NCBI GenBank assembly: GCA_964589145.1
Contig: CAZPSL010000213.1
Coordinates: forward strand, 1-54,980
Source: an uncultured Anaerolineales bacterium
Lineage (GTDB): Bacteria; Chloroflexota; Anaerolineae; Anaerolineales; UBA11858
Length of the DNA: 54,980 bases
Direction of reading: 5' to 3'
Within the stretch, counting starts at the first letter, position 1, and every line of letters starts with the position of its first letter. Of this stretch, positions 2,930-45,965 are shown piece after piece. The position numbers and the translations under genes are program-made. The notes below the pieces were generated by a model. It saw only the letters and a program-made list of their open reading frames with translations. It was not told the origin of the DNA and did no database searches.

Positions 2930-3610
2930 CTAGCGGTTAGATGCTCGCAGCAGAAGCAGGAACAGGTTGATGAAATCCAGGTAAAGGGTGAGTGCGCCAA
3001 TCACAATCAGGCCGCCGCGGGCCGGGTGTTCATCCATCTGCTGCCCAATCTGCTTGATGCGCTGTGCATCGTAAGCGGTCAACCCGACGAAGAGCGCGAT
3101 CCCTGCATAGGTCAGCAGCAGATTCATGCCAGGGAAGAACCAACTGAAAAACCAGGCAATTGACCATCCCAGCAGGAGCATGAAGAGGACATATCCCGCC
3201 GAACTGATGTCCTTTTTGAGCACCATGCCAAGAACGCTGGTCAGGAAGAACACGCCAGCCGTCACCCAAAAAACCTGCGAGATCTGGCTCTCGGCATAAA
3301 TCAAAAAGAGCGAGGCAAAGGTCAATCCCGTGATAGCAGAATAAAACAGGAAAAGCACAAATGCCAATCCGGGGGACATGCGCATGGCAGCCGCGCTGAG
3401 CGCCACCACGATGATAATTTGCACAATAAACAGGCCAAACGCCAGTCCGGGGCGGTACGCCATTCGCAGCATCAGGGGAACGTTGGTGCTTGTCCACGAG
3501 GCGACGAAGCCGGTAACGGCCAGCCCCAGGGCCATGAGCAGATACACTTGAGCCACAAACCCGTTGATACGGGTTTCGCTGACGGAGCGGGTTGCAGTTT
3601 GTGTGGTCAT
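2930..3610 (-). CDS. Bax inhibitor-1 / YccA family membrane protein
   Basis: ORF 2930..3709 trimmed to the ATG at 3610 (MTTQTATRS...); the upstream part translates the 29-nt palindrome. Seven hydrophobic segments and a C-terminal LYLDFINLFLLLLR typical of the BI-1 family. Confidence 0.85.
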   Translation of the reverse strand: MTTQTATRSVSETRINGFVAQVYLLMALGLAVTGFVASWTSTNVPLMLRMAYRPGLAFGLFIVQIIIVVALSAAAMRMSPGLAFVLFLFYSAITGLTFASLFLIYAESQISQVFWVTAGVFFLTSVLGMVLKKDISSAGYVLFMLLLGWSIAWFFSWFFPGMNLLLTYAGIALFVGLTAYDAQRIKQIGQQMDEHPARGGLIVIGALTLYLDFINLFLLLLRASNR

Positions 3611-3635
3611 AAGGTTTTCCTTCTGTTTGCGCGGA

Positions 3636-3670
3636 AAGGACTGGCAGTCCTGACAGGACTGCCAGTCCTT
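3636..3670. repeat. GACTGGCAGTCCTG-N-CAGGACTGCCAGTC palindrome (stand-alone copy), probable terminator hairpin for the peroxiredoxin gene
   Basis: aaggactggcagtcctg a caggactgccagtcctt has perfect 17-nt arms. It lies 12 nt downstream of the prx stop codon on the minus strand. Confidence 0.7.
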
Positions 3671-3681
3671 GGTGCCATTTT

Positions 3682-4278
3682 CTATTCGTCCACTTTCCAG
3701 ACTTCCCAAACCTTGCCGACCAGATCGGGGCCGGGCTTGAGGGTGGTCTTGCCGGGCTCCCAGCCTGCGGGAGTGACCTCGCCGGTTTCCATCACATGCT
3801 GGAAGGCCTTGATCTGGCGGATGGTCTCCGAGACCTTGCGCCCGACTTCGGGAGTGAGTACCTCCATTGCCCGGATGTTGAAATCGGGGTCAATGATGAA
3901 GCGCCCGCGAATATCTACGCCGGCTTCCTCGTTGTAAACGCCATAGATGTCGCCAATCCGTCCGCCCTGGTCACTGAGCATCGGGAAGGGAAAACCGCCG
4001 TCAACCATCTTGGAGAGTTCTTCTTCTTGCCAAACTTTGTGTGTGAAGCGGCTGTCGGTGCTGACTGCCAGAACCTGGACGCCGAGCGCGTCGAATTCAG
4101 CCTTGTGGGCAGCAACTGCTGCCAGTTCGGTCGGTCAGACAAAGGTGAAGTCGCCGGGGTAGAAGCAAAGCAAAATCCACTTGCCTTTGAAATCGGAAAG
4201 TTTGTAATTCCTGAAGCCGCCTTCAAAATAAGCCGAGGCTTCAAAATCGGGAGCGGGATTTCCTACCAGAGGTTTCAT
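3682..4278 (-). CDS. Typical 2-Cys-type peroxiredoxin (AhpC/Prx1 family) with in-frame TGA at the peroxidatic Cys position; candidate selenocysteine enzyme
   Basis: ORFs 4135..4395 (trimmed to the ATG at 4278, RBS aaggag) and 3682..4008 are in the same frame. They are separated only by the TGA at 4135-4137. The read-through translation is ...FYPGDFTFV-[TGA][35 protein letters not shown]..., which matches the universal FTFVCPTE active site. Confidence 0.75.
4108..4123 (-). promoter_or_regulatory. Candidate bacterial SECIS-like hairpin
   Basis: The mRNA reads UGA CCG ACC GAA CU GGCAGC AGUU GCUGCC. This is a 6-bp GC-rich stem with an AGUU loop, beginning 11 nt after the UGA. Confidence 0.45.
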
Positions 4279-4473
4279 TGTCTTGTTCTCCTTTTGGTTC
4301 TGAATGGAATTATCTGGTGATTTTTGAACGGGCACAAGCGGCCCTTTCGCCGGTTGTACACAGCCCGGTTCCTGTTCACTGTCCGTCATAAACACCTCCT
4401 TTCCGCGGGCCGGATATTATCTGCCAGGATTATACCCCGCCTTCGGCAATTTGAGCGAATTGGAAAACAGCGG

Positions 4474-4655
4474 GGTGCAGGCAAATGTTGTAGAAAAATT
4501 GTCATCTGCTAACAAACCGTGTCAGTTTGGAACCTCATCCCCCCTATGTCCCCCCTCACCCTTCGGGCAGGCTTCGCACTCCCCAGGGAAGGGGGGGATT
4601 GGACCTTTCGGTGTGTGTGCGGCGCACTTTGCGCGCCGCACACACACCTGACCCC
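4474..4655. mobile_element. One-ended copy of the modular MITE-like element (homologous to the left half of copy 29001-29368)
   Basis: TIR ggtgcaggcaaatgttgtagaaa at 4474-4496. The following sequence, aaattgtcatct..aacaaacc.tgtc.gtttggaacc..cacccttcgggcaggcttcgcactcccca.ggaagggggg..gtgtgcggcgcac, is near-identical to 29004-29165. Confidence 0.7.
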
Positions 4656-7563: not shown

Positions 7564-9372
7564 ATGCAGCCCATCCTCAAACTGGACCTCACCACCGGAA
7601 CGACCGCCGCCTTCACCCCGCCCGATGCGTGGGTGCGCGCCTACCTCGGCGGCGCGTCGCTGGCGGCGCGCCTGCTCTACGAACACCTCACCCCCGGCCT
7701 CGACCCGCTCTCGCCGGAAGCCCCGCTCCTGTTTCTCACCGGCCCCCTGACGGGGACGGGCGGCCCCTCGGTGGGGCGGTTTGTGGTTTGCGGAAAATCT
7801 CCGGCCACCGGCCTGTGGGCGGAATCCAACTGCGGGGGCTTTTGGGGCCCGGAACTCCGCAAGGCGGGTTTCGACGGGCTGTGGATCACCGGACGGGCGG
7901 AATCGCCGGTGTACCTGTGTGTGGAGGCTGGCGCGGCGGAACTTCGGGATGCGCGTTCCCTCTGGGGGCTGGAAACCTACCAAACCCAGGAAGCGATTCG
8001 CTCCTCAATCAGCGGCAAAAAGCCGCGGGTGCTGACCATCGGCCCCGCAGGGGAGGTGCAAATCCCCTTTGCGCTCATCCTCACCGATCACGGACGCGTC
8101 GCCGGGCGCACCGGGCTGGGCGCGGTCATGGGGGCCAAAAATCTCAAGGCCGTCGCCGTGCGCGGGCGCGGCAAAATCCCCGTGGCAGACCCCGCCGCCT
8201 TCGCCCCCCTGCGTCTGGATGCCAACCGCACCCTGCGGGATGACAACCTGACGGCGGTGATGCGCGAACTCGGCACCGGCGGCGGAGCGGATTACTTCGA
8301 CTACCTGGGCGAGATGCCCAAGCGCTATTTTCAATCGGGCAAGTTCGCGGGTGCGGCCAGCGTCACCGGCGCAGCGATGGCGGAAAGCATCCTGACCGGC
8401 GTGAGCGCCTGCCATGCCTGCGTGATTGCCTGCGGGCGGGTGGTGACGCTGCCCGGCGAGGCCGCCCCCCGCAAAGGCCCGGAGTACGAGACGATGGTCG
8501 GCTTCGGCCCCAACCTGCTGATTGACGACCTCGCCGCCGTCACCCGCCTGGGCGAGCGCTGCGACCAACTGGGCATGGATACCATCAGCCTGAGCGGCAC
8601 CATCGGGCTTGCGGTCACGCTCTTTGAACGCGGCGTGATCACCGCGGCGGATACCGGCGGCCTGCGGCTGACCTGGGGCGACCCGGATTTGGCGCTGCAA
8701 CTGGTGGAGATGACCGCCCGGCGGGCGGGCTTCGGGGCGGAACTCGCGGCGGGTTCCCGTGCCCTGGGGCGGAAATTCGGCGTTGAGGGGGCTGCCGTTC
8801 AGGTCAACGGCCTCGAGGTGGCCTACCACGACCCGCGGGCGGCCTCCGGCATGGCGCTGACCTATGCCACCTCGCCGCGCGGCGCCTGCCACAACCAGTC
8901 CGATTACTTTATGGTGGACATTCTCGGTCAGGTGGAGCCGGAACTGGGCTTGCAGGTCTTCGACCGCCAGGCCGGGGCGGAAAAGGCGGCGAACGTGGCG
9001 CGTCACCAGAACTGGCGGACGGTTTTCAACGCCCTGGTGATGTGCATCTTCGCCAATGTGCCGCCGCAAACCGTGCTGGCACTGGTCAATGCCGCCGCGG
9101 GCGAGACCTACACCCTGGGGGATTTGCTGCAATCCGGAGAACGCGCCTGGAACCTGAAACGCCTGATCAACCGCAATCTGGGGCTGACCCGCGCCAGCGA
9201 CACGCTTCCCGAAGCCCTGCTGACACCTTACGAGGACGGCGGCTCGGCGGGGTACCGCATCCCCTTCGAGGAGATGCTCGCCGCCTACTACGCCGCCCGC
9301 GGCTGGGATTCCGGGACGGGGATGCCAACCGCGGAAAAATTGACAGAATTGGGGATTGAGCGGGCCGCGTAA
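7564..9372 (+). CDS. Aldehyde:ferredoxin oxidoreductase family (tungstopterin enzyme)
   Basis: 602-aa ORF. The N-terminal AFOR_N-like LKLDLTTG...YLGG..LAARLL is followed by GKSPATGLWAESNCGGFWG..L..AGFDGLWITG, and the large C-terminal domain has the expected length. Confidence 0.88.
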   Translation: MQPILKLDLTTGTTAAFTPPDAWVRAYLGGASLAARLLYEHLTPGLDPLSPEAPLLFLTGPLTGTGGPSVGRFVVCGKSPATGLWAESNCGGFWGPELRKAGFDGLWITGRAESPVYLCVEAGAAELRDARSLWGLETYQTQEAIRSSISGKKPRVLTIGPAGEVQIPFALILTDHGRVAGRTGLGAVMGAKNLKAVAVRGRGKIPVADPAAFAPLRLDANRTLRDDNLTAVMRELGTGGGADYFDYLGEMPKRYFQSGKFAGAASVTGAAMAESILTGVSACHACVIACGRVVTLPGEAAPRKGPEYETMVGFGPNLLIDDLAAVTRLGERCDQLGMDTISLSGTIGLAVTLFERGVITAADTGGLRLTWGDPDLALQLVEMTARRAGFGAELAAGSRALGRKFGVEGAAVQVNGLEVAYHDPRAASGMALTYATSPRGACHNQSDYFMVDILGQVEPELGLQVFDRQAGAEKAANVARHQNWRTVFNALVMCIFANVPPQTVLALVNAAAGETYTLGDLLQSGERAWNLKRLINRNLGLTRASDTLPEALLTPYEDGGSAGYRIPFEEMLAAYYAARGWDSGTGMPTAEKLTELGIERAA

Positions 9373-30322: not shown

Positions 30323-30372
30323 AAAACCGCGCAGAAGGATGCTATTGACTTTTGCAATCTCCACAACCAGGT

Positions 30373-31626
30373 ATGCTTCCTATGACTGAATTTCTCGATC
30401 TTATTCCTCCTGATGATGCCTTACGGTTGATTTTATCAAACATTGAAACGCACCCCATTCCCGAAAGAGTGAACACCGAACAAGCCTTGGGGCGGGTGAC
30501 TGTTTCCGCTATACCGGCCCCTCACCCCCTGCCGGAGTTTCGCCGCTCCACGGTGGACGGCTACGCCGTCCGGGCCGCAGACACCTACGGGGCCAGCGAG
30601 TCCTTGCCAGCCTATCTCAGCCTGGTCGGCGAGGTGCAAATGGGTCAATTTGCGAATTTGACATTGCAGCCGACCGAATGCGCCTTGATTCACACCGGGG
30701 GAATGCTTCCCAAAGGGGCAGACGCCGTTGTGATGGTAGAGCACACCCAACAATCGCGGCCCGGCGAAATCGAAATCCTGCGAGCCGCTGCCGTTGGAGA
30801 AAATATCATCGAAATCGGGGAAGACATCCGTCTGCACGAAACGGTGATCCCTGCGGGAAAACGCATTCGCCCGGCAGAAATCGGCGGGCTGATGGCAATG
30901 GGAATTACACAGATTGATGTGGCGCGCAAACCCAAAATCGGAATCATCTCCTCCGGGGATGAGGTGATTCATCCGTCACAGCACCCATCTCCCGGTCAGG
31001 TACGGGATGTCAACTCCTACACACTGGCAGCAGTCGTCCGGCAGGTTGGAGGAGAACCCATCCAGTATGGCATCATCCCCGATGATCGTGCAGCAATGGA
31101 AAAAGCCGCCCGTCAGGCACATGCCGAATGCGATGCGCTGGTCATCACCGCGGGTTCGTCTGTCAGTGCGCGTGATATGACCGCCGCCGTAATTGATGTG
31201 CTGGGCAAACCGGGCGTGCTGGTGCATGGCGTCAATATCCGCCCCGGCAAGCCGACCATTCTGGGGATTTGCGAGAACAAGCCGGTTATTGGGCTGCCGG
31301 GCAACCCGGTGAGCGCGCTGGTCAATGTTAAAGTGTTTGTCGCCCCCGTAGTGCAGAAATTGCTTGGCGAGCATGTAACCGGGCTGCGCGCAACCGTACA
31401 GGCCAAACTGCTGGTCAATTTGGCATCGGAATCTGGCCGCGAAGAATGGATTCCCGTTCGTTTGTTACCGGCTGGGGACAGATGGGAGGCAGACCCGATT
31501 TTTGGCAAGAGCAATCTGATTTTTACAATGGCACGCGCGGACGGGCTGATCCGGGTTCTGCCCGACGCCACCGGACTTGCCGCAGGAGAAACAGTCGAAG
31601 TACACCTTTCGGGTGTAATTTGTTGA
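30373..31626 (+). CDS. moeA: Molybdopterin molybdenum/tungsten-transferase
   Basis: ORF 30352..31626. Start ambiguous between ATG 30373 and ATG 30382. MoeA blocks: VDGYAVRA, GGMLPKGADAVV, ISSGDEV, ITAGSSVS, PGKP and GLPGNPVSA. Confidence 0.88.
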   Translation: MLPMTEFLDLIPPDDALRLILSNIETHPIPERVNTEQALGRVTVSAIPAPHPLPEFRRSTVDGYAVRAADTYGASESLPAYLSLVGEVQMGQFANLTLQPTECALIHTGGMLPKGADAVVMVEHTQQSRPGEIEILRAAAVGENIIEIGEDIRLHETVIPAGKRIRPAEIGGLMAMGITQIDVARKPKIGIISSGDEVIHPSQHPSPGQVRDVNSYTLAAVVRQVGGEPIQYGIIPDDRAAMEKAARQAHAECDALVITAGSSVSARDMTAAVIDVLGKPGVLVHGVNIRPGKPTILGICENKPVIGLPGNPVSALVNVKVFVAPVVQKLLGEHVTGLRATVQAKLLVNLASESGREEWIPVRLLPAGDRWEADPIFGKSNLIFTMARADGLIRVLPDATGLAAGETVEVHLSGVIC

Positions 31627-34286: not shown

Positions 34287-35225
<939 letters not shown>

Positions 35226-40424: not shown

Positions 40425-40506
40425 AAGTTCTCCACTCGCCGACTCGCTGACTCGCATTGTACGCCAGAAACCGCCAATCCGCAAACAAACTTCGCAGCCG
40501 GAAAAT

Positions 40507-40672
40507 GGGTGTAAGCAAAAGGCGTAGGACGCCGGTGTTCCCCCCTCCTCGCCCTCCCAAAATTTTCCGCTTTGGTTCCCCTCTCCCACAGAGAGAGGGG
40601 TTAGGGGTGAGGGAAAACTTACCCAAGGCAAGAGCAAACGGCACTCAATTTCTGCGTCTTTTGCTTGCCTCC
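40507..40672. mobile_element. MITE-like element (166 bp, diverged TIRs) in the divergent LOG / methyltransferase spacer
   Basis: Ends are gggtgtaagcaaaaggcgtaggac ... atttctgcgtcttttgcttgcctcc. Internal ccctctcccacagagagagggg module. Confidence 0.65.
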
Positions 40673-40714
40673 GAGCGCGGCCTGTCGTTGACACCCCCCA
40701 TCCCTGACGGTAGA

Positions 40715-41725
40715 ATGAACAGCATGAGCCGTACTGATAACAGCGAAGTAAAAGAACCAGCCGCGAAATATGCCCGATCAGATACATTGCCATCTTTTTT
40801 TGGGCAGCCTTTGCTTCGGGGAAAATTTTTATTGGACGGTGATTCGCATCCCGATTTAGAATCGCCGCAGTGCTTTTATGTACATCCAAACGGTGAGATT
40901 TGGATAGGTGATGCCATTGCATGGTTGCAAACTTTGGAAACGGAATCAGTAAACTTGGTGGTTGCTGACCCTCCTTACAACATCAAGAAAGCCCAGTGGG
41001 ACCACTTTAACTCCCATCGGGATTACGTTAACTGGTCTTTACAATGGATTGAACAAGCCGCTCGTGTGCTGAAACCCGATGGCACCTTGTACATTTTCGG
41101 GTTTTCGGAAATTTTGGCTGATTTGAAGCAGCCTGCTATGGAGTTTTTTCACAGTGTTCGTTGGCTAGTGTGGCATTACAAGAATAAAGCGAATCTGGGA
41201 AACGATTGGGGGCGGTCTCACGAAAGTGTACTCCATTTTCGCAAGAGCAAAACATTCACCTTCAATGTTGATAATGTTCGCATCCCATACGGGCGGCATA
41301 CTCTAAAGTATCCGGATCATCCGCAGGCAGAGACAAGTCAATACGGGAAAAATGCAGCCAACAAAAATCGTCGCTGGCAGCCCAATCCGAAAGGAGCAAA
41401 ACCCAGAGATGTGATTGAAATTCCCACGACGTGCAACGGTATGCATGAAAAAACCCCACATCCTACGCAGAAACCGGAAGAACTCCTGCGAAAATTCGTT
41501 CTTGCATCATCCAACCCAGGTGATTTGGTGATTGATCCCTTTTTAGGTTCCGGTACAACAGTGGTAGTTGCGGAGCAACTCAAACGGCAGTGGAAAGGAT
41601 GCGATATTTCGCTTGAGTACTGTCAATGGGCTGCCAATCGCATTGAATTAGTGGAGAACTGGTCGATAGAAAAGTGGATTGCTTATGACCGCCGTAACGC
41701 GGAGCGCAGGAAGTCGATACGATGA
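40715..41725 (+). CDS. Beta-class DNA methyltransferase (DPPY motif; probably N6-adenine, N4-cytosine not excluded)
   Basis: ORF 40457..41725 trimmed to the ATG at 40715. Motif IV VVADPPYN precedes motif I VIDPFLGSGTTVVVA, giving the IV-to-I order. The region is visibly AT-richer than its flanks. Confidence 0.85.
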   Translation: MNSMSRTDNSEVKEPAAKYARSDTLPSFFGQPLLRGKFLLDGDSHPDLESPQCFYVHPNGEIWIGDAIAWLQTLETESVNLVVADPPYNIKKAQWDHFNSHRDYVNWSLQWIEQAARVLKPDGTLYIFGFSEILADLKQPAMEFFHSVRWLVWHYKNKANLGNDWGRSHESVLHFRKSKTFTFNVDNVRIPYGRHTLKYPDHPQAETSQYGKNAANKNRRWQPNPKGAKPRDVIEIPTTCNGMHEKTPHPTQKPEELLRKFVLASSNPGDLVIDPFLGSGTTVVVAEQLKRQWKGCDISLEYCQWAANRIELVENWSIEKWIAYDRRNAERRKSIR

Positions 41726-42678
41726 ATATAATTACACTGAGCGATTTGCAGGCCAGCGTTCGAGATAGATCTGCTTTTAACAAGTTATCGGATTATCGCC
41801 AATTGGGGCAGGCTTTTTTGTCGTTGTTGGAATTGAGCCAGCCGACGCGAATTATTTCCCCATCTCAAAATCATTACATTTTTTATCAGTATGACGAGGA
41901 AACGTCTTATCGCATTACTCGTCCCTTGAATACACAGTTGTTTATCGAAAATGTGGACGAATTTACGCGTGCGTTTGACCGTTTTGGAGATTTCCTTGCC
42001 GACCTACGAAAATACGAGGATAAAGCGGCAACCCGCCCGGATGCTGAGAATTATTTGCGTTCTGGTGAAATTAATCGTGTGGTTTACACTGCCCAGCAGA
42101 TTGTAGGCTGTATCGGTGATTCTTTTCCCAGTCCTAATCAGTCCCGCAAGCGCGTAGGACAAATTTTTGAGCAGTTGGTTAGGCTTATCATACATGAAAC
42201 GGGGGTGCATTGTGACACTCGACGTATTACGGTTCCTATCCCTGGCGTTGATAATTATCAGATGTCGTATGAACTTGATTTGGTCTTTTCGCGAGATAAA
42301 GCGATTCTGACGTCAGAAACCAAGTATATTCACCCATCCGAAGTAGTCGGTTCGGTGAAAACAACCAGCAAGGACAGACTGGATAAGATATTTTTAGATA
42401 AATACTTGCTGACGCAATTTTTGGGACGTGAAATACCAGTTATTGCTATTTTCTTGCATGATGTGCAGCGTGCCAAACGCGGCAACAGCATATTTGGGAT
42501 TAATGCCACATTTAAAAGCAACCATTTCCTTGGATACTCAGTAGCACTTAATCGTTTGGATGGTGTTTATTACGTAGACCCGCGCCCGGAGATGGTGACA
42601 AATCCGCGTTTGAGTGCACAAATTCGAGATTTTCAGTATTTTTTGGTTTATGATCTGTGGACTTTATCCGCTCGGTGA
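41722..42678 (+). CDS. Hypothetical protein; candidate cognate type II restriction endonuclease
   Basis: 318-aa ORF whose ATG overlaps the methyltransferase stop (ATGA) and shares its AT-rich composition. Possible PD-(D/E)XK-like core YELDLVFS...VVGSVKTTSKDR. No family recognised. Confidence 0.55.
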   Translation: MNIITLSDLQASVRDRSAFNKLSDYRQLGQAFLSLLELSQPTRIISPSQNHYIFYQYDEETSYRITRPLNTQLFIENVDEFTRAFDRFGDFLADLRKYEDKAATRPDAENYLRSGEINRVVYTAQQIVGCIGDSFPSPNQSRKRVGQIFEQLVRLIIHETGVHCDTRRITVPIPGVDNYQMSYELDLVFSRDKAILTSETKYIHPSEVVGSVKTTSKDRLDKIFLDKYLLTQFLGREIPVIAIFLHDVQRAKRGNSIFGINATFKSNHFLGYSVALNRLDGVYYVDPRPEMVTNPRLSAQIRDFQYFLVYDLWTLSAR

Positions 42679-42683
42679 CACGA

Positions 42684-45600
42684 ATGAACCCCCTCCTTGA
42701 CGGTCTCAACCCCCAGCAGCAGCAGGCGGTGATGGCCGGAACCGGGCCGGTGCTGGTACTGGCGGGCCCCGGCTCCGGCAAAACCCGCGTACTCACGCAC
42801 CGCATCGCCTATCTGATTGGCTACCTGGGCGTGCGTCCTTACCACGTCCTGGCGGTGACCTTCACCAACAAGGCCGCCCGCGAGATGGAAGCCCGCGTCG
42901 AAAACCTGCTGGGGCAGTCCACCCGCGGGCTGACTTTGGGAACTTTCCACGCGGTTTGCGCCCGCATTCTGCGCCGCGAGGCCGAACACCTGCCCTTTGA
43001 CAGCAACTACGTCATCTTCGATGCCGACGACCAACTCTCCATCGTCAAGCGGGTGCTCAAAGACCTGAACGTCAACGACAAACTTTACCGTCCCCAGGGC
43101 GTCCACGCGGCCATTTCCAACGCCAAAAACGAACTGATTTTGCCCGATGCCTTCCCCGTGCAGACCTACCGGGACGAGGTGATCAAGCGCGTCTACGAGC
43201 GTTATCAGCAAGCCCTGCTGACCTCCAACGCCCTCGATTTTGACGACCTCCTGCTGTGGACCGCCCATCTGCTGGAGGAGCAGCCTGCCGTCCGCGAGCG
43301 TTACGCCCGCCGTTACGAGCACATCCTCGTGGATGAATTTCAGGATACCAACATGGCGCAGTACACCCTGCTGCGCCACCTGGCATCGTTCCACCGCAAC
43401 ATCTTCGTCGTCGGGGATGCCGACCAGTGTTTCCCGCCGGAGACGCCCGTGCAGACGCCGGAAGGCGCGCAGCCCATCGCGGATTTGCAAGCCGGTGAAC
43501 AGGTGATTGCCGCCAGCGGGCGCGGTTCCGTGCTGGCAGCGCGGGTCAACCGCGTTGGCAAACGCCATTTTGAAGGCGAACTGGTTGCCGTAAAAACGCA
43601 AAAGGGCCTGTCGTTCCGTGCCACGCCCAACCATATCGTGTTTACCCGCCTGGGGCTGAACCCCGGCCTGCACTACGTTTATCTGATGTACCGCCGGGAT
43701 AAAGGATACCGCATCGGTGTTGCCTCACATGCTCGCAGTGACGGGACGAATGCGCACAACCAAATCGGGCTGAGGGTTCGCAGCAACCAGGAGAAGGCCG
43801 ATAAAATGTGGGTTCTGCGCGTTTGCGAGGACCGTGCCGATGCCTATTACTGGGAATCGTTTTATGCGTTCACTTATGGCGTTCCGACAACGGTTTTCGA
43901 TGCTGCCGGGCGCAGCATGAAATTCACACAAGAGAAAATTGACCGGCTGTACGCCCAAATTGACACGCGCACCAATGCCCGCCGCCTGATGGAGGATTTG
44001 GGGCTGGATGAAAACTACCCCCATTACCGCCCGCAAGGGACTTTTCGCAACCTGGTCAACCTGCGCTATTTTGGTGATGGACGCAAAACAAAGTCCTCGC
44101 CCTGGCACGCGCATCGGGTGGATTTGTGGAGCAGCGAAGACGAACTCGCTCAAAAACTGAAATCTCAAGGGTATCACCCCCGCATTCGCAGCCGCAACAA
44201 CTGGCGCATCGGGTTCAGCCGTCTGCATTACGATGACATCCACGCGGTTGCCCGCAAACTCAGCGATGACCTCGGCGGAGCGGAAATTGTGGTCGGCGCG
44301 TTTCTGGTGGATAAAGGTGATTCGCCGCTCTCGCCGCGCTTTGCCCTGATGCCTGCCAGCCAACTTCACCCCTCGATGATCCTGGCGGTAGCGCAGGACG
44401 GCGAAATCGTGGAGGATGTGATCACCGAAGTTCACCGCGAACCGTATGAAGGCGATGTGTACGATTTGGAAGTGGATAACCTGCACAATTACCTCGCGGG
44501 CGGCATTGTGGTTCACAATTCCATCTACCGCTGGCGGGGCGCCGATTACCGCAACGTCCTGCGCTTTGAGCAGGATTTCCCCGATGCGCAGGTCATCCTG
44601 CTGGAGCAGCACTACCGCTCCACCCAGACCATCCTCGACACGGCGATGGCGGTGATTGACCGCAACCCCAACCGCAAGCGCAAGCAACTTTTCACCGAGC
44701 GCGGCCGCGGCCCCAAGGTCATCCTGCGCGAGACTTACGACGACCGCGAGCAGGCCGCCTTTGTGGTGGAGACCATCGCCAAACAGGTTGCCCGCCAAAA
44801 CCGCCAGCCCGGCGATTTCGCCGTCATGTACCGCACCAACGCCCAATCCCGCGTGCTGGAGGAAGCCTTTCTCGCCGCCGGATTGCCCTACAAACTGGTC
44901 GGGGCGCAGCGGTTTTACGGACGCCGCGAAATCAAGGACGTGATCGCCTACCTGCGGCTGGTTCACAACCCCAACGACCAGGTCAGCCTCGACCGGGTGA
45001 TCAACACTCCCACCCGCGGGATTGGCAGCAAAACCCAGGTCGCCCTGCGCACTGAAGCCCGGAAGTTGAATCTCACCCCTGGGGAACTGCTGCTCACCCT
45101 GGCGGCGGGCGACGAATCCCCGCAGGCGGAGCGGTTCACCCGCCGGGCGCTTCTGGCGCTCTCGCGGTTCGCGAAGATGCTCTCCACCTGGATTGCGCTC
45201 AGGGCCGAACTTCCTCCCCGCGACCTGATGGACAAAATCCTGGAAGATACGAATTACCGCACTTACATTGACGACGGCACGGATGAGGGCCGCAGCCGCT
45301 GGGAAAACGTGGTTGAACTGCGCCGGTTGGCGGCGGAATACCGTGACGAGGGGATGGAAGCCTTTTTGGAAGATGTTGCCCTGGTTTCCGACCAGGATAC
45401 CCTCGACGCGGATGCCAACGTCCCCACCCTGCTGACCCTGCACGCCGCCAAGGGGCTGGAGTTCCCCGTGGTGTTTATCGTCGGGCTGAACGACGGCACG
45501 CTGCCGCACATCCGCTCCTTCGACGAACCCGAATCGATGCAGGAGGAGCGCCGCCTGTTTTACGTTGGCATCACCCGCGCCAAAGATCAACTTTACCTGC

Positions 45601-45965
45601 TCCATTCGCTCAACCGTTACACCTACGGTTACGCCGAACCCGCCGAACCCTCCCGCTTCATCGCCGACATCCCGGATGACCTGCTCGATGACGCCCGCCC
45701 CGGACGCCAAAAGCGGAAGTCCCGCCGCGCGGCAGCCGGTTACGAATCCTGGACTTTGCCCGCCCCGAAGGGCCGCACAGCCCGAAAGAAGCCCAAGCCC
45801 AAAATGCAGTACAGCCCCGGCATGAAGGTCGAGCACAGCGTTTGGGGCGAGGGCATGGTACTCAACGCCAAACTGGACGGCGACGACGAAATCGTGGACA
45901 TTTTCTTCGACAGCGTAGGCCTGAAGCGGGTTGTGGCGGCAATGGCGAAGTTAAAAATCAAATGA
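42684..45965 (+). CDS. pcrA: PcrA/UvrD-type ATP-dependent DNA helicase, intein-containing precursor
   Basis: ORF trimmed to the ATG at 42684 (MNPLLDGLNPQQQQAV...). Walker A AGPGSGKT, VDEFQDTN, and motif III split as VVGDADQ / SIYRWRGA. The extein totals about 729 aa. Confidence 0.9.
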   Translation: MNPLLDGLNPQQQQAVMAGTGPVLVLAGPGSGKTRVLTHRIAYLIGYLGVRPYHVLAVTFTNKAAREMEARVENLLGQSTRGLTLGTFHAVCARILRREAEHLPFDSNYVIFDADDQLSIVKRVLKDLNVNDKLYRPQGVHAAISNAKNELILPDAFPVQTYRDEVIKRVYERYQQALLTSNALDFDDLLLWTAHLLEEQPAVRERYARRYEHILVDEFQDTNMAQYTLLRHLASFHRNIFVVGDADQCFPPETPVQTPEGAQPIADLQAGEQVIAASGRGSVLAARVNRVGKRHFEGELVAVKTQKGLSFRATPNHIVFTRLGLNPGLHYVYLMYRRDKGYRIGVASHARSDGTNAHNQIGLRVRSNQEKADKMWVLRVCEDRADAYYWESFYAFTYGVPTTVFDAAGRSMKFTQEKIDRLYAQIDTRTNARRLMEDLGLDENYPHYRPQGTFRNLVNLRYFGDGRKTKSSPWHAHRVDLWSSEDELAQKLKSQGYHPRIRSRNNWRIGFSRLHYDDIHAVARKLSDDLGGAEIVVGAFLVDKGDSPLSPRFALMPASQLHPSMILAVAQDGEIVEDVITEVHREPYEGDVYDLEVDNLHNYLAGGIVVHNSIYRWRGADYRNVLRFEQDFPDAQVILLEQHYRSTQTILDTAMAVIDRNPNRKRKQLFTERGRGPKVILRETYDDREQAAFVVETIAKQVARQNRQPGDFAVMYRTNAQSRVLEEAFLAAGLPYKLVGAQRFYGRREIKDVIAYLRLVHNPNDQVSLDRVINTPTRGIGSKTQVALRTEARKLNLTPGELLLTLAAGDESPQAERFTRRALLALSRFAKMLSTWIALRAELPPRDLMDKILEDTNYRTYIDDGTDEGRSRWENVVELRRLAAEYRDEGMEAFLEDVALVSDQDTLDADANVPTLLTLHAAKGLEFPVVFIVGLNDGTLPHIRSFDEPESMQEERRLFYVGITRAKDQLYLLHSLNRYTYGYAEPAEPSRFIADIPDDLLDDARPGRQKRKSRRAAAGYESWTLPAPKGRTARKKPKPKMQYSPGMKVEHSVWGEGMVLNAKLDGDDEIVDIFFDSVGLKRVVAAMAKLKIK
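43428..44519 (+). other. Intein (364 aa) inserted in helicase motif III
   Basis: Starts with Cys (CFPPETPVQTPEG...). Block B TPNH. Blocks F/G GDVYDLEVDNLHNYLAGGIVVHN, followed by extein +1 Ser. A central domain of about 200 aa or more of unclear type is present. Confidence 0.88.

What the first reader, a model, noticed from the sequence alone, without database searches (positions are those of the whole stretch)
3682..4278. Peroxiredoxin with UGA exactly at the peroxidatic-Cys codon: candidate selenocysteine peroxiredoxin
Seen in the sequence:
- Two same-frame ORFs are separated by a single TGA at 4135-4137 on the minus strand.
- Read-through gives an uninterrupted 198-aa typical-2-Cys-type peroxiredoxin.
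- The stop replaces the catalytic Cys of the universal FTFVCPTE motif, reading [18 protein letters not shown].
- A GC-rich hairpin (GGCAGC-AGUU-GCUGCC, 4108-4123) starts 11 nt after the UGA.
- The usual resolving Cys in GEVCPA(N/G)W reads GEVTPAGW here, so the protein would be Sec-only.

Established knowledge: bacterial Sec insertion needs a SECIS hairpin immediately 3' of the UGA. Sec-containing peroxiredoxins exist, for example PrxU of Eubacterium acidaminophilum.

Inference: a stop placed precisely at the redox residue, with the rest of the frame intact, is far more typical of a selenoprotein than of a decaying gene.
Basis: partly seen in the sequence, partly recalled or inferred. Interest (0 to 1): 0.75.

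Follow-up and report, generated by a model that had tools for sequence, protein, structure and literature searches.

The report
PrxU-type selenocysteine peroxiredoxin gene
This is a real gene for a peroxide-detoxifying enzyme that uses selenocysteine, read from an in-frame UGA with the help of a conserved RNA hairpin; it belongs to the already catalogued PrxU family, so it is ordinary, although automatic gene calling cut it in two.

Summary
A minus-strand peroxiredoxin gene has one in-frame TGA (4135-4137) at the peroxidatic residue (DFTFV-U-PTE). A 6-bp/4-nt hairpin (4108-4123) starts 11 nt downstream.

- All 39 closest DNA relatives I could read, from at least eight phyla, carry TGA at this codon.
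- The hairpin is kept by compensatory changes, including at synonymous sites. The loop G-U is invariant.
- Ordinary AhpC genes have no such hairpin.
- TGA is the normal stop for 17 of 33 other genes on the contig.
- Substitutions downstream of the TGA fall on third codon positions (8/1/51), so the frame is translated.
- The protein scores 380 bits (cutoff 270) on NCBIfam NF040737 "peroxi_PrxU".

- The gene most likely starts at ATG 4389, not 4278. That gives 235 codons and a 37-residue N-terminal arm.
- The protein is not "Sec-only". It has Cys10, invariant in the family alignment and possibly the resolving residue, and Cys75.

The Sec machinery could not be checked: the window is a whole 55-kb contig of an Anaerolineales-like MAG and carries no selA/B/C/D. 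Verdict: a new member of a known selenoprotein family, of low novelty.

The parts
3682..4389 (-). prxU coding sequence. It has 235 sense codons including Sec85, starts at ATG 4389-4387 and ends at TAG 3684-3682.
   Evidence: Translation. NCBIfam NF040737 peroxi_PrxU: 380.1 bits against cutoff 270, residues 8-234 aligned to model positions 2-232 of 233. Pfam AhpC-TSA 1.6e-37 and 1-cysPrx_C.
4395..4400 (-). Shine-Dalgarno-like AGGAGG, 5 nt upstream of ATG 4389.
   Evidence: Read directly from the sequence. Function is inferred.
4279..4389 (-). N-terminal extension, residues 1-37. It consists of a conserved peptide ([18 protein letters not shown]) followed by a variable, low-complexity linker.
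   Evidence: It is open in frame with the core in 31 of 34 genome loci. The Cys is invariant in 29 of 29 and 49 of 49 aligned family members. Differences from L002 by codon position are 4/4/14. The PrxU HMM covers it. A public gene call starts here.
4360..4362 (-). Cys10 codon (TGT). This is the invariant N-terminal cysteine and a candidate resolving residue.
   Evidence: Its role is inferred, not shown.
4276..4278 (-). A GGAG lies 9 nt upstream, so a second, shorter product cannot be excluded.
   Evidence: Sequence. Most relatives keep a Met near this position.
4165..4167 (-). Cys75 codon (TGC), in LLCFYPGD, 10 residues before Sec.
   Evidence: Invariant in the PrxU alignments. Present in all 38 PrxU loci. 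Only 7 of 46 ordinary AhpC loci have Cys at this position.
4135..4137 (-). In-frame UGA, the Sec85 codon, at the peroxidatic position of the T-x-x-U motif (PGDFTFV-U-PTE).
   Evidence: TGA at the homologous codon in 39 of 39 closest DNA loci. 'W' at this position in 65 database proteins, which are gene calls made under genetic code 4.
4124..4134 (-). 11-nt spacer between the UGA and the hairpin (CCGACCGAACU).
   Evidence: The spacing is identical, with no indels, in 36 aligned relatives. The minimal E. coli SECIS is also 11 nt from the UGA (PMC8659212).
4108..4123 (-). SECIS hairpin: stem GGCAGC/GCUGCC and loop AGUU (4114-4117). The loop G (4116) and U (4115) are invariant.
   Evidence: Overall 92% of cells are paired. 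Pair 15-30 appears as GC, UA, AU and CG. The three synonymous-site pairs are paired in 104 of 108 cells in Sec genes against 7 of 12 in Cys genes.
3760..3783 (-). GEVTPAGW. This is the site where typical 2-Cys peroxiredoxins carry the resolving Cys (VCP); here it is Thr.
   Evidence: All 46 ordinary AhpC loci have VCP here. 35 of 38 PrxU loci lack it.
3638..3668 (-). Perfect 13-bp inverted repeat with a 5-nt loop (GGACUGGCAGUCC-UGUCA-GGACUGCCAGUCC), then UUUCC. It lies 14 nt after the prxU stop and is a probable transcription terminator or attenuator ahead of the Bax1-I-family gene.
   Evidence: Read from the sequence. The simple terminator scan did not call it, because the T-run is too short. 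Function is inferred.

Best explanation
The locus 3682-4389 (minus strand) encodes a PrxU-family, thioredoxin-dependent peroxiredoxin whose peroxidatic residue is selenocysteine.

Translation. A ribosome reaching UGA 4137-4135 meets an mRNA hairpin placed 11 nt downstream: a 6-bp stem and an RGUY loop that exposes G and U. By analogy with the E. coli fdhF SECIS, this hairpin recruits SelB-GTP-Sec-tRNASec, so Sec is inserted instead of terminating. This step is inferred; the structure and its conservation are shown.

Chemistry. The product has the Prx1/AhpC fold. The selenolate of Sec85 reduces H2O2 or organic hydroperoxides to give a selenenic acid (inferred from family chemistry).

Recycling. 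The canonical C-terminal resolving Cys is absent. The oxidised Sec is probably resolved either by the invariant Cys10 on the flexible N-terminal arm, forming a selenenylsulfide, or directly by thioredoxin. Recycling would then run through thioredoxin and thioredoxin reductase. A TrxB gene lies at 34287-35225.
For: - Family membership. NF040737 peroxi_PrxU scores 380.1 bits against a cutoff of 270 and is almost full length. AhpC (TIGR03137) scores only 187.8 against a cutoff of 272.
- Fold. The AlphaFold model of the 67%-identical Cys homologue P0021 has pLDDT 87. It matches rat Prx1, human Prx2 and Salmonella AhpC with target-normalised TM-scores of 0.88-0.90.
- UGA conservation. 39 of 39 closest DNA loci have TGA at this codon. 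They include 34 species representatives of Anaerolineae, Desulfobacterota, Acidobacteriota, Firmicutes, Calditrichota, Spirochaetes, Planctomycetota and Synergistota. The database relatives at 88-99% identity are 147-148-aa fragments that begin just after the TGA.
- Hairpin. It has the same register in 36 sequences. 92% of cells are paired, against 75% in shuffles. There are 60 double-sided changes against 20.7 expected, and 0 of 500 shuffles reach the observed score. All slid controls score far lower.
- Synonymous-site pairs. Three pairs that link only synonymous codon positions are paired in 104 of 108 cells in Sec genes and 7 of 12 in Cys-form PrxU genes (Fisher p = 4e-4).
- Amino acids covary with the stem: Ala...Ala switches to Ser...Glu/Asp.
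- Loop. It is GGUC (19 sequences) or AGUU (17), with G and U invariant.
- Ordinary AhpC genes: 0 bp of stem in 45 of 46.
- TGA is a real stop in 17 of 33 genes of the contig. prxU is the only gene with an internal stop.
- Purifying selection downstream of the TGA: differences from L002 by codon position are 8/1/51.
- Literature. Sec-peroxiredoxin with a TxxU motif is an experimentally verified bacterial selenoprotein family (PMC13188914; PMC1794560; PMC1088965). The minimal E. coli SECIS lies 11 nt from the UGA and needs loop G23/U24 (PMC8659212).
Against: - No selA, selB, selD or tRNA-Sec is on the contig. The contig is all that is available for this organism, so the Sec-decoding trait is unverified for this genome.
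- There is no Rfam hit. Only chance-level hits turned up.
- The single-sequence folding energy is not exceptional (z = -0.8).
- Four of the seven stem pairs are dictated by the Ala-Ala-Val-Ala-Ala peptide. Cys-form relatives keep 2-6 bp of the stem. The stem alone is therefore weaker evidence than it looks; the synonymous-site pairs carry the weight.
- The hairpin lacks the bulged U17 of the E. coli element.
- There is no direct evidence for selenium incorporation, peroxidase activity or the role of Cys10.
- Many database relatives appear as short forms lacking both Cys10 and the canonical resolving Cys. Cys10 may therefore be dispensable.
Confidence: 0.93

Rival explanations
1. The gene is a pseudogene, or the TGA is a sequencing or assembly error. 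On this reading a Cys codon (TGC/TGT) mutated to TGA and only a dead 84-aa fragment is made.
For: Public gene calls treat it as two fragments. TGA is one substitution away from TGC/TGT. No Sec machinery is visible on the contig.
Against: The same TGA occurs in 39 of 39 independent relatives from many phyla and many samples. The frame downstream is intact. It evolves with an 8/1/51 codon-position pattern, which indicates translation. An RNA hairpin at fixed spacing covaries only in the TGA-bearing genes.
Confidence: 0.02
2. The organism uses a reassigned genetic code in which TGA is a sense codon (Trp or Gly, codes 4 or 25). Position 85 would then be Trp or Gly.
For: 65 database homologues are recorded with 'W' at this position.
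Against: The W calls are what a code-4 gene-calling model produces on a short contig with an in-frame TGA. In this contig TGA terminates 17 of 33 Pfam-supported genes at full domain coverage, and no other gene has an internal TGA. Trp or Gly at the peroxidatic position would abolish catalysis, yet the rest of the active site is invariant.
Confidence: 0.01
3. The UGA is read through without selenium, by near-cognate suppression or by Cys inserted via the Sec pathway. The protein would then be, at least conditionally, a Cys or Trp enzyme and the hairpin a general read-through stimulator.
For: Nothing here measures which amino acid is inserted. Cys-form PrxU genes exist in close relatives (P0021, P0044), so Cys is functionally acceptable at this site.
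Against: The hairpin matches the specific SelB-type element: 11-nt spacing, a small loop and an invariant G-U. The family's founding member is cited in reviews as an experimentally verified selenoprotein. If Cys were the intended residue, a TGC/TGT codon would be far more efficient.
Confidence: 0.04

Closest known systems
PrxU, the selenocysteine-containing peroxiredoxin first described in Eubacterium acidaminophilum (Sohling et al. 2001, cited in PMC13188914). NCBIfam equivalog NF040737 'peroxi_PrxU'.
   Same: Prx1/AhpC-type core. Sec at the peroxidatic position of the T-x-x-U motif. No canonical C-terminal resolving Cys. An N-terminal Cys-bearing extension is covered by the 233-position model. 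The score of 380 bits is well above the 270-bit cutoff.
   Different: The host is an uncultured Anaerolineales-like Chloroflexota MAG rather than a Clostridium-type Firmicute. The active-site variant is U-P-T-E, whereas many relatives, including all the Firmicute loci fetched here, have U-A-T-E. From my own memory, unverified here, the E. acidaminophilum protein was reported as about 203 aa (the short form). Whether the N-terminal arm is present in the mature protein is therefore open.
E. coli fdhF SECIS element (SelB-binding mRNA hairpin)
   Same: It lies inside the ORF, with the functional upper stem-loop starting 11 nt after the UGA. It has a small apical loop with an essential G-U. The loop GGUC found in 19 of 36 relatives is, from my memory, the same tetraloop as in fdhF. 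The 11-nt spacing and G23/U24 are taken from PMC8659212.
   Different: The stem has 6-7 bp with no bulged U17. The loop G-U sits one nucleotide closer to the UGA (positions 22-23, not 23-24). There is no extended lower stem. Binding to SelB is not tested.
Typical 2-Cys peroxiredoxins (AhpC, human Prx1/Prx2)
   Same: Same fold, with target-normalised TM-scores of 0.88-0.90. About 40% sequence identity. Same PxDFTFV-[C/U]-PTE active-site loop and the same GE-x-x-P-x-x-W C-terminal motif.
   Different: The peroxidatic residue is Sec. The resolving Cys of the VCP motif is replaced by Thr. An extra N-terminal arm carries an invariant Cys. AhpC model TIGR03137 scores below its cutoff (187.8 against 272).

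Membership tests
PrxU selenoperoxiredoxin (NCBIfam NF040737) | Whole-protein score at or above the curated equivalog cutoff, with near full-length alignment | tested here: met
   380.1 bits against cutoff 270. Residues 8-234 align to model positions 2-232 of 233 (Sec entered as Cys).
PrxU selenoperoxiredoxin (NCBIfam NF040737) | UGA/Sec at the peroxidatic position of the T-x-x-U motif | tested here: met
   DFTFV-TGA-PTE at 4135-4137. The same codon is TGA in 39 of 39 relatives.
PrxU selenoperoxiredoxin (NCBIfam NF040737) | Prx1/AhpC thioredoxin-like fold | tested here: met
   Pfam AhpC-TSA 1.6e-37. The AF2 model of the 67%-identical homologue P0021 matches 2z9s, 7kj1 and 1n8j with target-normalised TM 0.88-0.90. 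The window protein itself was not modelled.
PrxU selenoperoxiredoxin (NCBIfam NF040737) | Selenium actually incorporated; thioredoxin-dependent peroxidase activity | not testable with these tools
   Needs 75Se labelling or mass spectrometry, and enzyme assays.
Bacterial SECIS element | Stem-loop inside the ORF immediately 3' of the UGA, with the functional hairpin about 11 nt from the UGA | tested here: met
   The hairpin at 4108-4123 starts 11 nt after the UGA. The spacing is fixed in 36 relatives. The reference value comes from PMC8659212.
Bacterial SECIS element | Small apical loop with a conserved G (G-U) | tested here: met
   The loop is AGUU or GGUC. G22 and U23 are invariant in 36 of 36 sequences. 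The criterion is described in PMC1088965.
Bacterial SECIS element | Structure maintained by selection (compensatory changes), specific to UGA-bearing genes | tested here: met
   0 of 500 shuffles reach the observed covariation or pairing. Synonymous-site pairs are paired in 104 of 108 cells against 7 of 12 in Cys forms. Ordinary AhpC genes have 0 bp of stem.
Bacterial SECIS element | Bulged U in the 5' arm of the stem (U17 of E. coli fdhF) | tested here: not met
   The stem is continuous. This feature is documented for E. coli SelB. It is not known to be universal, so this lowers similarity to the E. coli element rather than the SECIS assignment.
Bacterial SECIS element | Sec-decoding machinery (selA, selB, selC, selD) in the same genome; SelB binding | tested here: inconclusive
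   None of these genes is on the 54,980-bp contig. The window is the entire contig. The rest of the genome is unavailable.
Typical 2-Cys peroxiredoxin (AhpC/Prx1) | Resolving Cys in the C-terminal VCP motif | tested here: not met
   The motif is GEVTPAGW. 46 of 46 ordinary AhpC loci have VCP. TIGR03137 AhpC scores 187.8, below its cutoff of 272.
1-Cys peroxiredoxin (Prx6 type) | Membership of Prx6-type models; no resolving Cys anywhere | tested here: not met
   PRK13189, PRK13190, PRK13191 and PRK13599 all score far below their cutoffs. An invariant extra Cys (Cys10) is present. The Pfam 1-cysPrx_C hit is, to my knowledge, a C-terminal domain shared with Prx1-type enzymes.

The most novel reading that the evidence does not exclude
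In PrxU enzymes the resolving residue may have moved from the C-terminal VCP motif to an invariant Cys on a flexible N-terminal arm (Cys10, motif G-C-x-[KRQ]-P). Catalysis would then run through a Sec85-Cys10 selenenylsulfide that thioredoxin reduces. This would be an N-terminal-arm variant of the 2-Cys mechanism, and I found no paper describing it. It may be combined with a second, shorter product initiated at Met38 that lacks the arm.
Probability: 0.35. Interest if true: 0.45.

Novelty: new member of a known kind. Interest (0 to 1): 0.25.

Why it matters
The main value is for annotation and ecology.
- It shows that this Anaerolineales-like organism almost certainly decodes UGA as Sec.
- It adds a Chloroflexota member to a selenoprotein family best known from Deltaproteobacteria and Clostridia.
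- It illustrates a systematic database error. In public gene calls this family appears either as two fragments or as a protein with a spurious Trp at the catalytic position: 65 of the 115 best-matching database proteins that contain the active-site motif, out of 120 listed.

The covariation data give a clean, family-specific SECIS model: an 11-nt spacer, a 6-7-bp stem and an RGUY loop. That model could be used to rescue such genes.

The only open biological question is the role of the invariant N-terminal Cys, given that the canonical resolving Cys has been lost.

Tried and rejected
- Rfam, at gathering thresholds over the whole window and at permissive thresholds on 3600-4500, gave nothing relevant.
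- Single-sequence folding does not distinguish the hairpin from shuffles (z = -0.8). I relied on comparative data instead.
- I searched the window for Sec machinery and tRNA-Sec. ARAGORN found 0 tRNAs, and Pfam scans of about 50 ORFs found no SelA, SelB or SelD.
- I hoped to extend beyond the window, but the contig is exactly 54,980 bp.
- tRNA scans of the flanks of 39 related loci found no tRNA-Sec.
- A scan for further in-frame-TGA genes in the window gave only overlapping wrong-frame ORFs. One example, 30436-31464 on the minus strand, lies antisense to a MoeA gene.
- The AF2 job gave fold and confidence values only, with no coordinates. The Cys10-to-active-site distance could not be measured. 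The arm has only moderate confidence (pLDDT about 63) and the linker is disordered.
- The original PrxU paper (PMID 11501765) is not in the held library. Statements about its length and N-terminus rest on my memory.
- I considered and rejected the pseudogene, sequencing-error and code-4/25 readings (see the rival explanations).

Full report
**1. The observation**

On the minus strand, an ORF is interrupted by a single TGA at 4137-4135. The surrounding peptide reads ...[23 protein letters not shown].... The stop therefore sits exactly at the peroxidatic position of the peroxiredoxin P-x-x-x-T-x-x-C motif.

Eleven nucleotides later lies GGCAGC-AGUU-GCUGCC (4123-4108). RNAfold predicts it as a hairpin, but a single-sequence fold is not better than shuffles (z = -0.8). 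The site of the usual resolving Cys reads GEVTPAGW (3760-3783). With Cys substituted at the stop, Pfam gives AhpC-TSA (1.6e-37), Redoxin and 1-cysPrx_C.

**2. Gene boundaries**

That ATG is preceded by AGGAGG (4400-4395) with a 5-nt spacer. The extra 37 residues are [37 protein letters not shown].

Several lines of evidence indicate that this extension is real:
- The Cys in it is invariant in alignments of 29 and 49 family members.
- 31 of 34 genome loci have it, 74-80 residues before the Sec codon, in an open frame.
- Differences from the 93%-identical relative L002 are biased to third codon positions (4/4/14).
- The curated 233-position PrxU model aligns from residue 8.
- A public gene call for this very contig is the 84-aa fragment from MTDSEQ to FTFV.

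The gene is therefore 3682-4389: 235 codons, with Sec85, Cys10 and Cys75. An internal start at Met38 cannot be excluded, since a GGAG lies 9 nt upstream of it.

**3. Is the TGA real and functional?**

The closest database proteins (88-99% identity) are all 147-148-aa fragments that begin just after the stop. 115 of the 120 best hits contain the active-site motif. Of these, 65 carry 'W' at the catalytic position, 49 carry C and one carries R. The 'W' is what results when a gene caller switches to genetic code 4 on a short contig.

At the DNA level, 5 of 5 close metagenomic loci have TGA at this codon. So do all 34 best loci from a scan of one genome per species. Those 34 come from Anaerolineae, Desulfobacterota, Acidobacteriota, Firmicutes, Calditrichota, Spirochaetes, Planctomycetota and Synergistota. 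The 46 more distant hits, ordinary AhpC genes, have TGC or TGT.

Within the window, TGA terminates 17 of 33 Pfam-supported genes. prxU is the only gene with an internal stop. This excludes a reassigned genetic code.

Downstream of the TGA, the window and L002 differ at 8, 1 and 51 sites in codon positions 1, 2 and 3. That part of the gene is therefore translated and under purifying selection. Together these results exclude a pseudogene or a sequencing error.

**4. The hairpin**

In 36 non-identical TGA-bearing sequences aligned without gaps, the stem (columns 14-20 with 25-31) and the loop-closing pair (21 with 24) behave as follows:
- 92% of cells are paired, against 75% in column shuffles.
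- There are 60 cells with changes on both sides, against 20.7 expected.
- 0 of 500 shuffles reach the observed pairing or covariation score.
- All slid controls score far lower.
- Pair 15-30 occurs as GC, UA, AU and CG.

Four of the seven stem pairs are dictated by the Ala-Ala-Val-Ala-Ala peptide, so they prove little. Three pairs (15-30, 18-27, 21-24) join only synonymous third positions. These are paired in 104 of 108 cells in the Sec genes, against 7 of 12 in the four Cys-form PrxU genes I could fetch (Fisher p = 4e-4).

Where the peptide changes, it changes in a way that keeps the helix: Ala...Ala becomes Ser...Glu/Asp (UCG...CGA). The loop is GGUC (19 sequences) or AGUU (17), with G and U invariant. 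Ordinary AhpC genes show 0 bp of stem at this position in 45 of 46 cases.

The geometry matches what is reported for the minimal E. coli SECIS, namely an upper stem-loop 11 nt from the UGA with an essential loop G23/U24 (PMC8659212). [quoted passage not shown] There are two differences: no bulged U, and the G-U sits one nucleotide closer to the UGA.

**5. What the protein is**

NCBIfam places it in NF040737 'peroxi_PrxU' (equivalog, thioredoxin-dependent peroxiredoxin) at 380.1 bits against a cutoff of 270. AhpC (TIGR03137) and the Prx6-type models fall below their cutoffs.

An AlphaFold model of the 67%-identical Cys-form homologue P0021 has mean pLDDT 87. It matches rat Prx1, human Prx2 and Salmonella AhpC at target-normalised TM 0.88-0.90. 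The N-terminal peptide has moderate confidence (about 63) and the linker is disordered. No solved structure covers the N-terminal arm.

Sec-peroxiredoxin with a TxxU motif is listed among the experimentally verified prokaryotic selenoproteins (PMC13188914). It was already the fifth most frequent bacterial selenoprotein family in 2006 (PMC1794560) and the second most abundant in the Sargasso Sea data (PMC1088965). The last of these papers also notes that such genes are almost universally misannotated.

**6. Mechanism**

Shown:
- The recoding signal's anatomy and its conservation.
- The Prx1-type fold.
- An intact active-site loop.
- Loss of the canonical resolving Cys (Thr in GEVTPAGW). 46 of 46 ordinary AhpC loci keep VCP.
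- Gain of an invariant Cys on an N-terminal arm.

Inferred:
- SelB-Sec-tRNASec is recruited by the hairpin.
- Sec85 selenolate attacks the peroxide and becomes a selenenic acid.
- That is resolved to a selenenylsulfide, most plausibly with Cys10, and then reduced by thioredoxin.

A thioredoxin reductase gene lies at 34287-35225 (TIGR01292, 400.8 bits against a cutoff of 343).

The Cys10 role is only a hypothesis:
- Two loci carry both Cys10 and VCP (L011, L030).
- One locus lacks the arm and has VCP (L014).
- One locus lacks both (L013).
- About half of the database relatives are recorded as short forms with neither. Some of those may be mis-called starts.

**7. What could not be tested**

The window is the complete 54,980-bp contig of an uncultured organism. 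Its PNPase is 73-79% identical to named Anaerolineales and Chloroflexi MAG proteins. The contig carries no tRNA and no SelA, SelB or SelD. Presence of the Sec-decoding trait in this genome is therefore inferred from the gene itself, not shown.

**8. Verdict**

The element is a new, previously mis-called member of the known PrxU selenoperoxiredoxin family, so novelty is low. There are three corrections: the start codon is 4389, the protein is not Sec-only, and the family is already curated. The only mildly novel lead is the invariant N-terminal Cys as a relocated resolving residue.

Noticed in passing
window 42657-45965 (+): A 1102-aa UvrD/PcrA-type helicase appears to be interrupted by an intein. 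Pfam Hint hits residues 256-331 and Intein_splicing hits residues 573-621, between the UvrD-helicase N-terminal domain and the UvrD_C domain.
   Followed up: no
window 3638-3668 (-): A perfect 13-bp inverted repeat with a 5-nt loop lies 14 nt after the prxU stop, followed only by UUUCC. It is probably a terminator or attenuator ahead of the Bax1-I/YccA-family membrane protein gene (2930-3610). The order prxU then Bax1-I is conserved in relatives L002-L004.
   Followed up: partly
window 34287-35225 (-): A thioredoxin-disulfide reductase gene (TIGR01292, 400.8 bits against cutoff 343). It is the likely electron supplier for PrxU through thioredoxin, but lies 30 kb away and is not in the same operon.
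   Followed up: partly
database homologues P0001-P0120: 65 of the 115 homologues that contain the active-site motif are recorded with Trp at the catalytic position. The gene callers read the in-frame TGA under genetic code 4. One homologue (P0033) has Arg; its DNA was not fetched, so the codon is unknown, but CGA would be one substitution from TGA. This looks like a systematic annotation artefact for this family.
   Followed up: partly
L089 3001-3792 and proteins P0041, P0042, P0045, P0047, P0060: Cys-form PrxU relatives carry an N-terminal signal-peptide-like hydrophobic segment placed before the conserved D-L-C-[VI]-x-P-A-R-G-P-I motif. In L089 the next genes encode rhodanese/beta-lactamase-fold and sulfur-transport proteins. 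This suggests exported, sulfur-metabolism-linked versions of the family.
   Followed up: no
L086 2277-2759 and 6206-6658: In a Cys-form relative, the prxU homologue is flanked by a divergently transcribed FUR-family regulator (possibly PerR-like) and a rubrerythrin gene. This fits an oxidative-stress regulon.
   Followed up: no
window 7564-9372 (+) and 30352-31626 (+): An aldehyde:ferredoxin oxidoreductase gene (AFOR_N and AFOR_C) and a MoeA molybdopterin/tungstopterin biosynthesis gene. Together they point to an anaerobic lifestyle, which fits the known bias of Sec-peroxiredoxins towards anaerobes.
   Followed up: no
window 40457-42678 (+): An N6/N4 DNA methylase gene (PF01555) is followed by an overlapping 318-aa ORF with no Pfam hit. 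This may be a restriction-modification pair.
   Followed up: no
L086-L089, positions +12 to +31 after the Cys codon: Cys-form PrxU genes still keep 2-6 bp of the SECIS stem, but the loop-closing and synonymous-site pairs are broken. This is consistent with recent Sec-to-Cys conversions leaving a decaying SECIS. Only four such loci were examined.
   Followed up: partly
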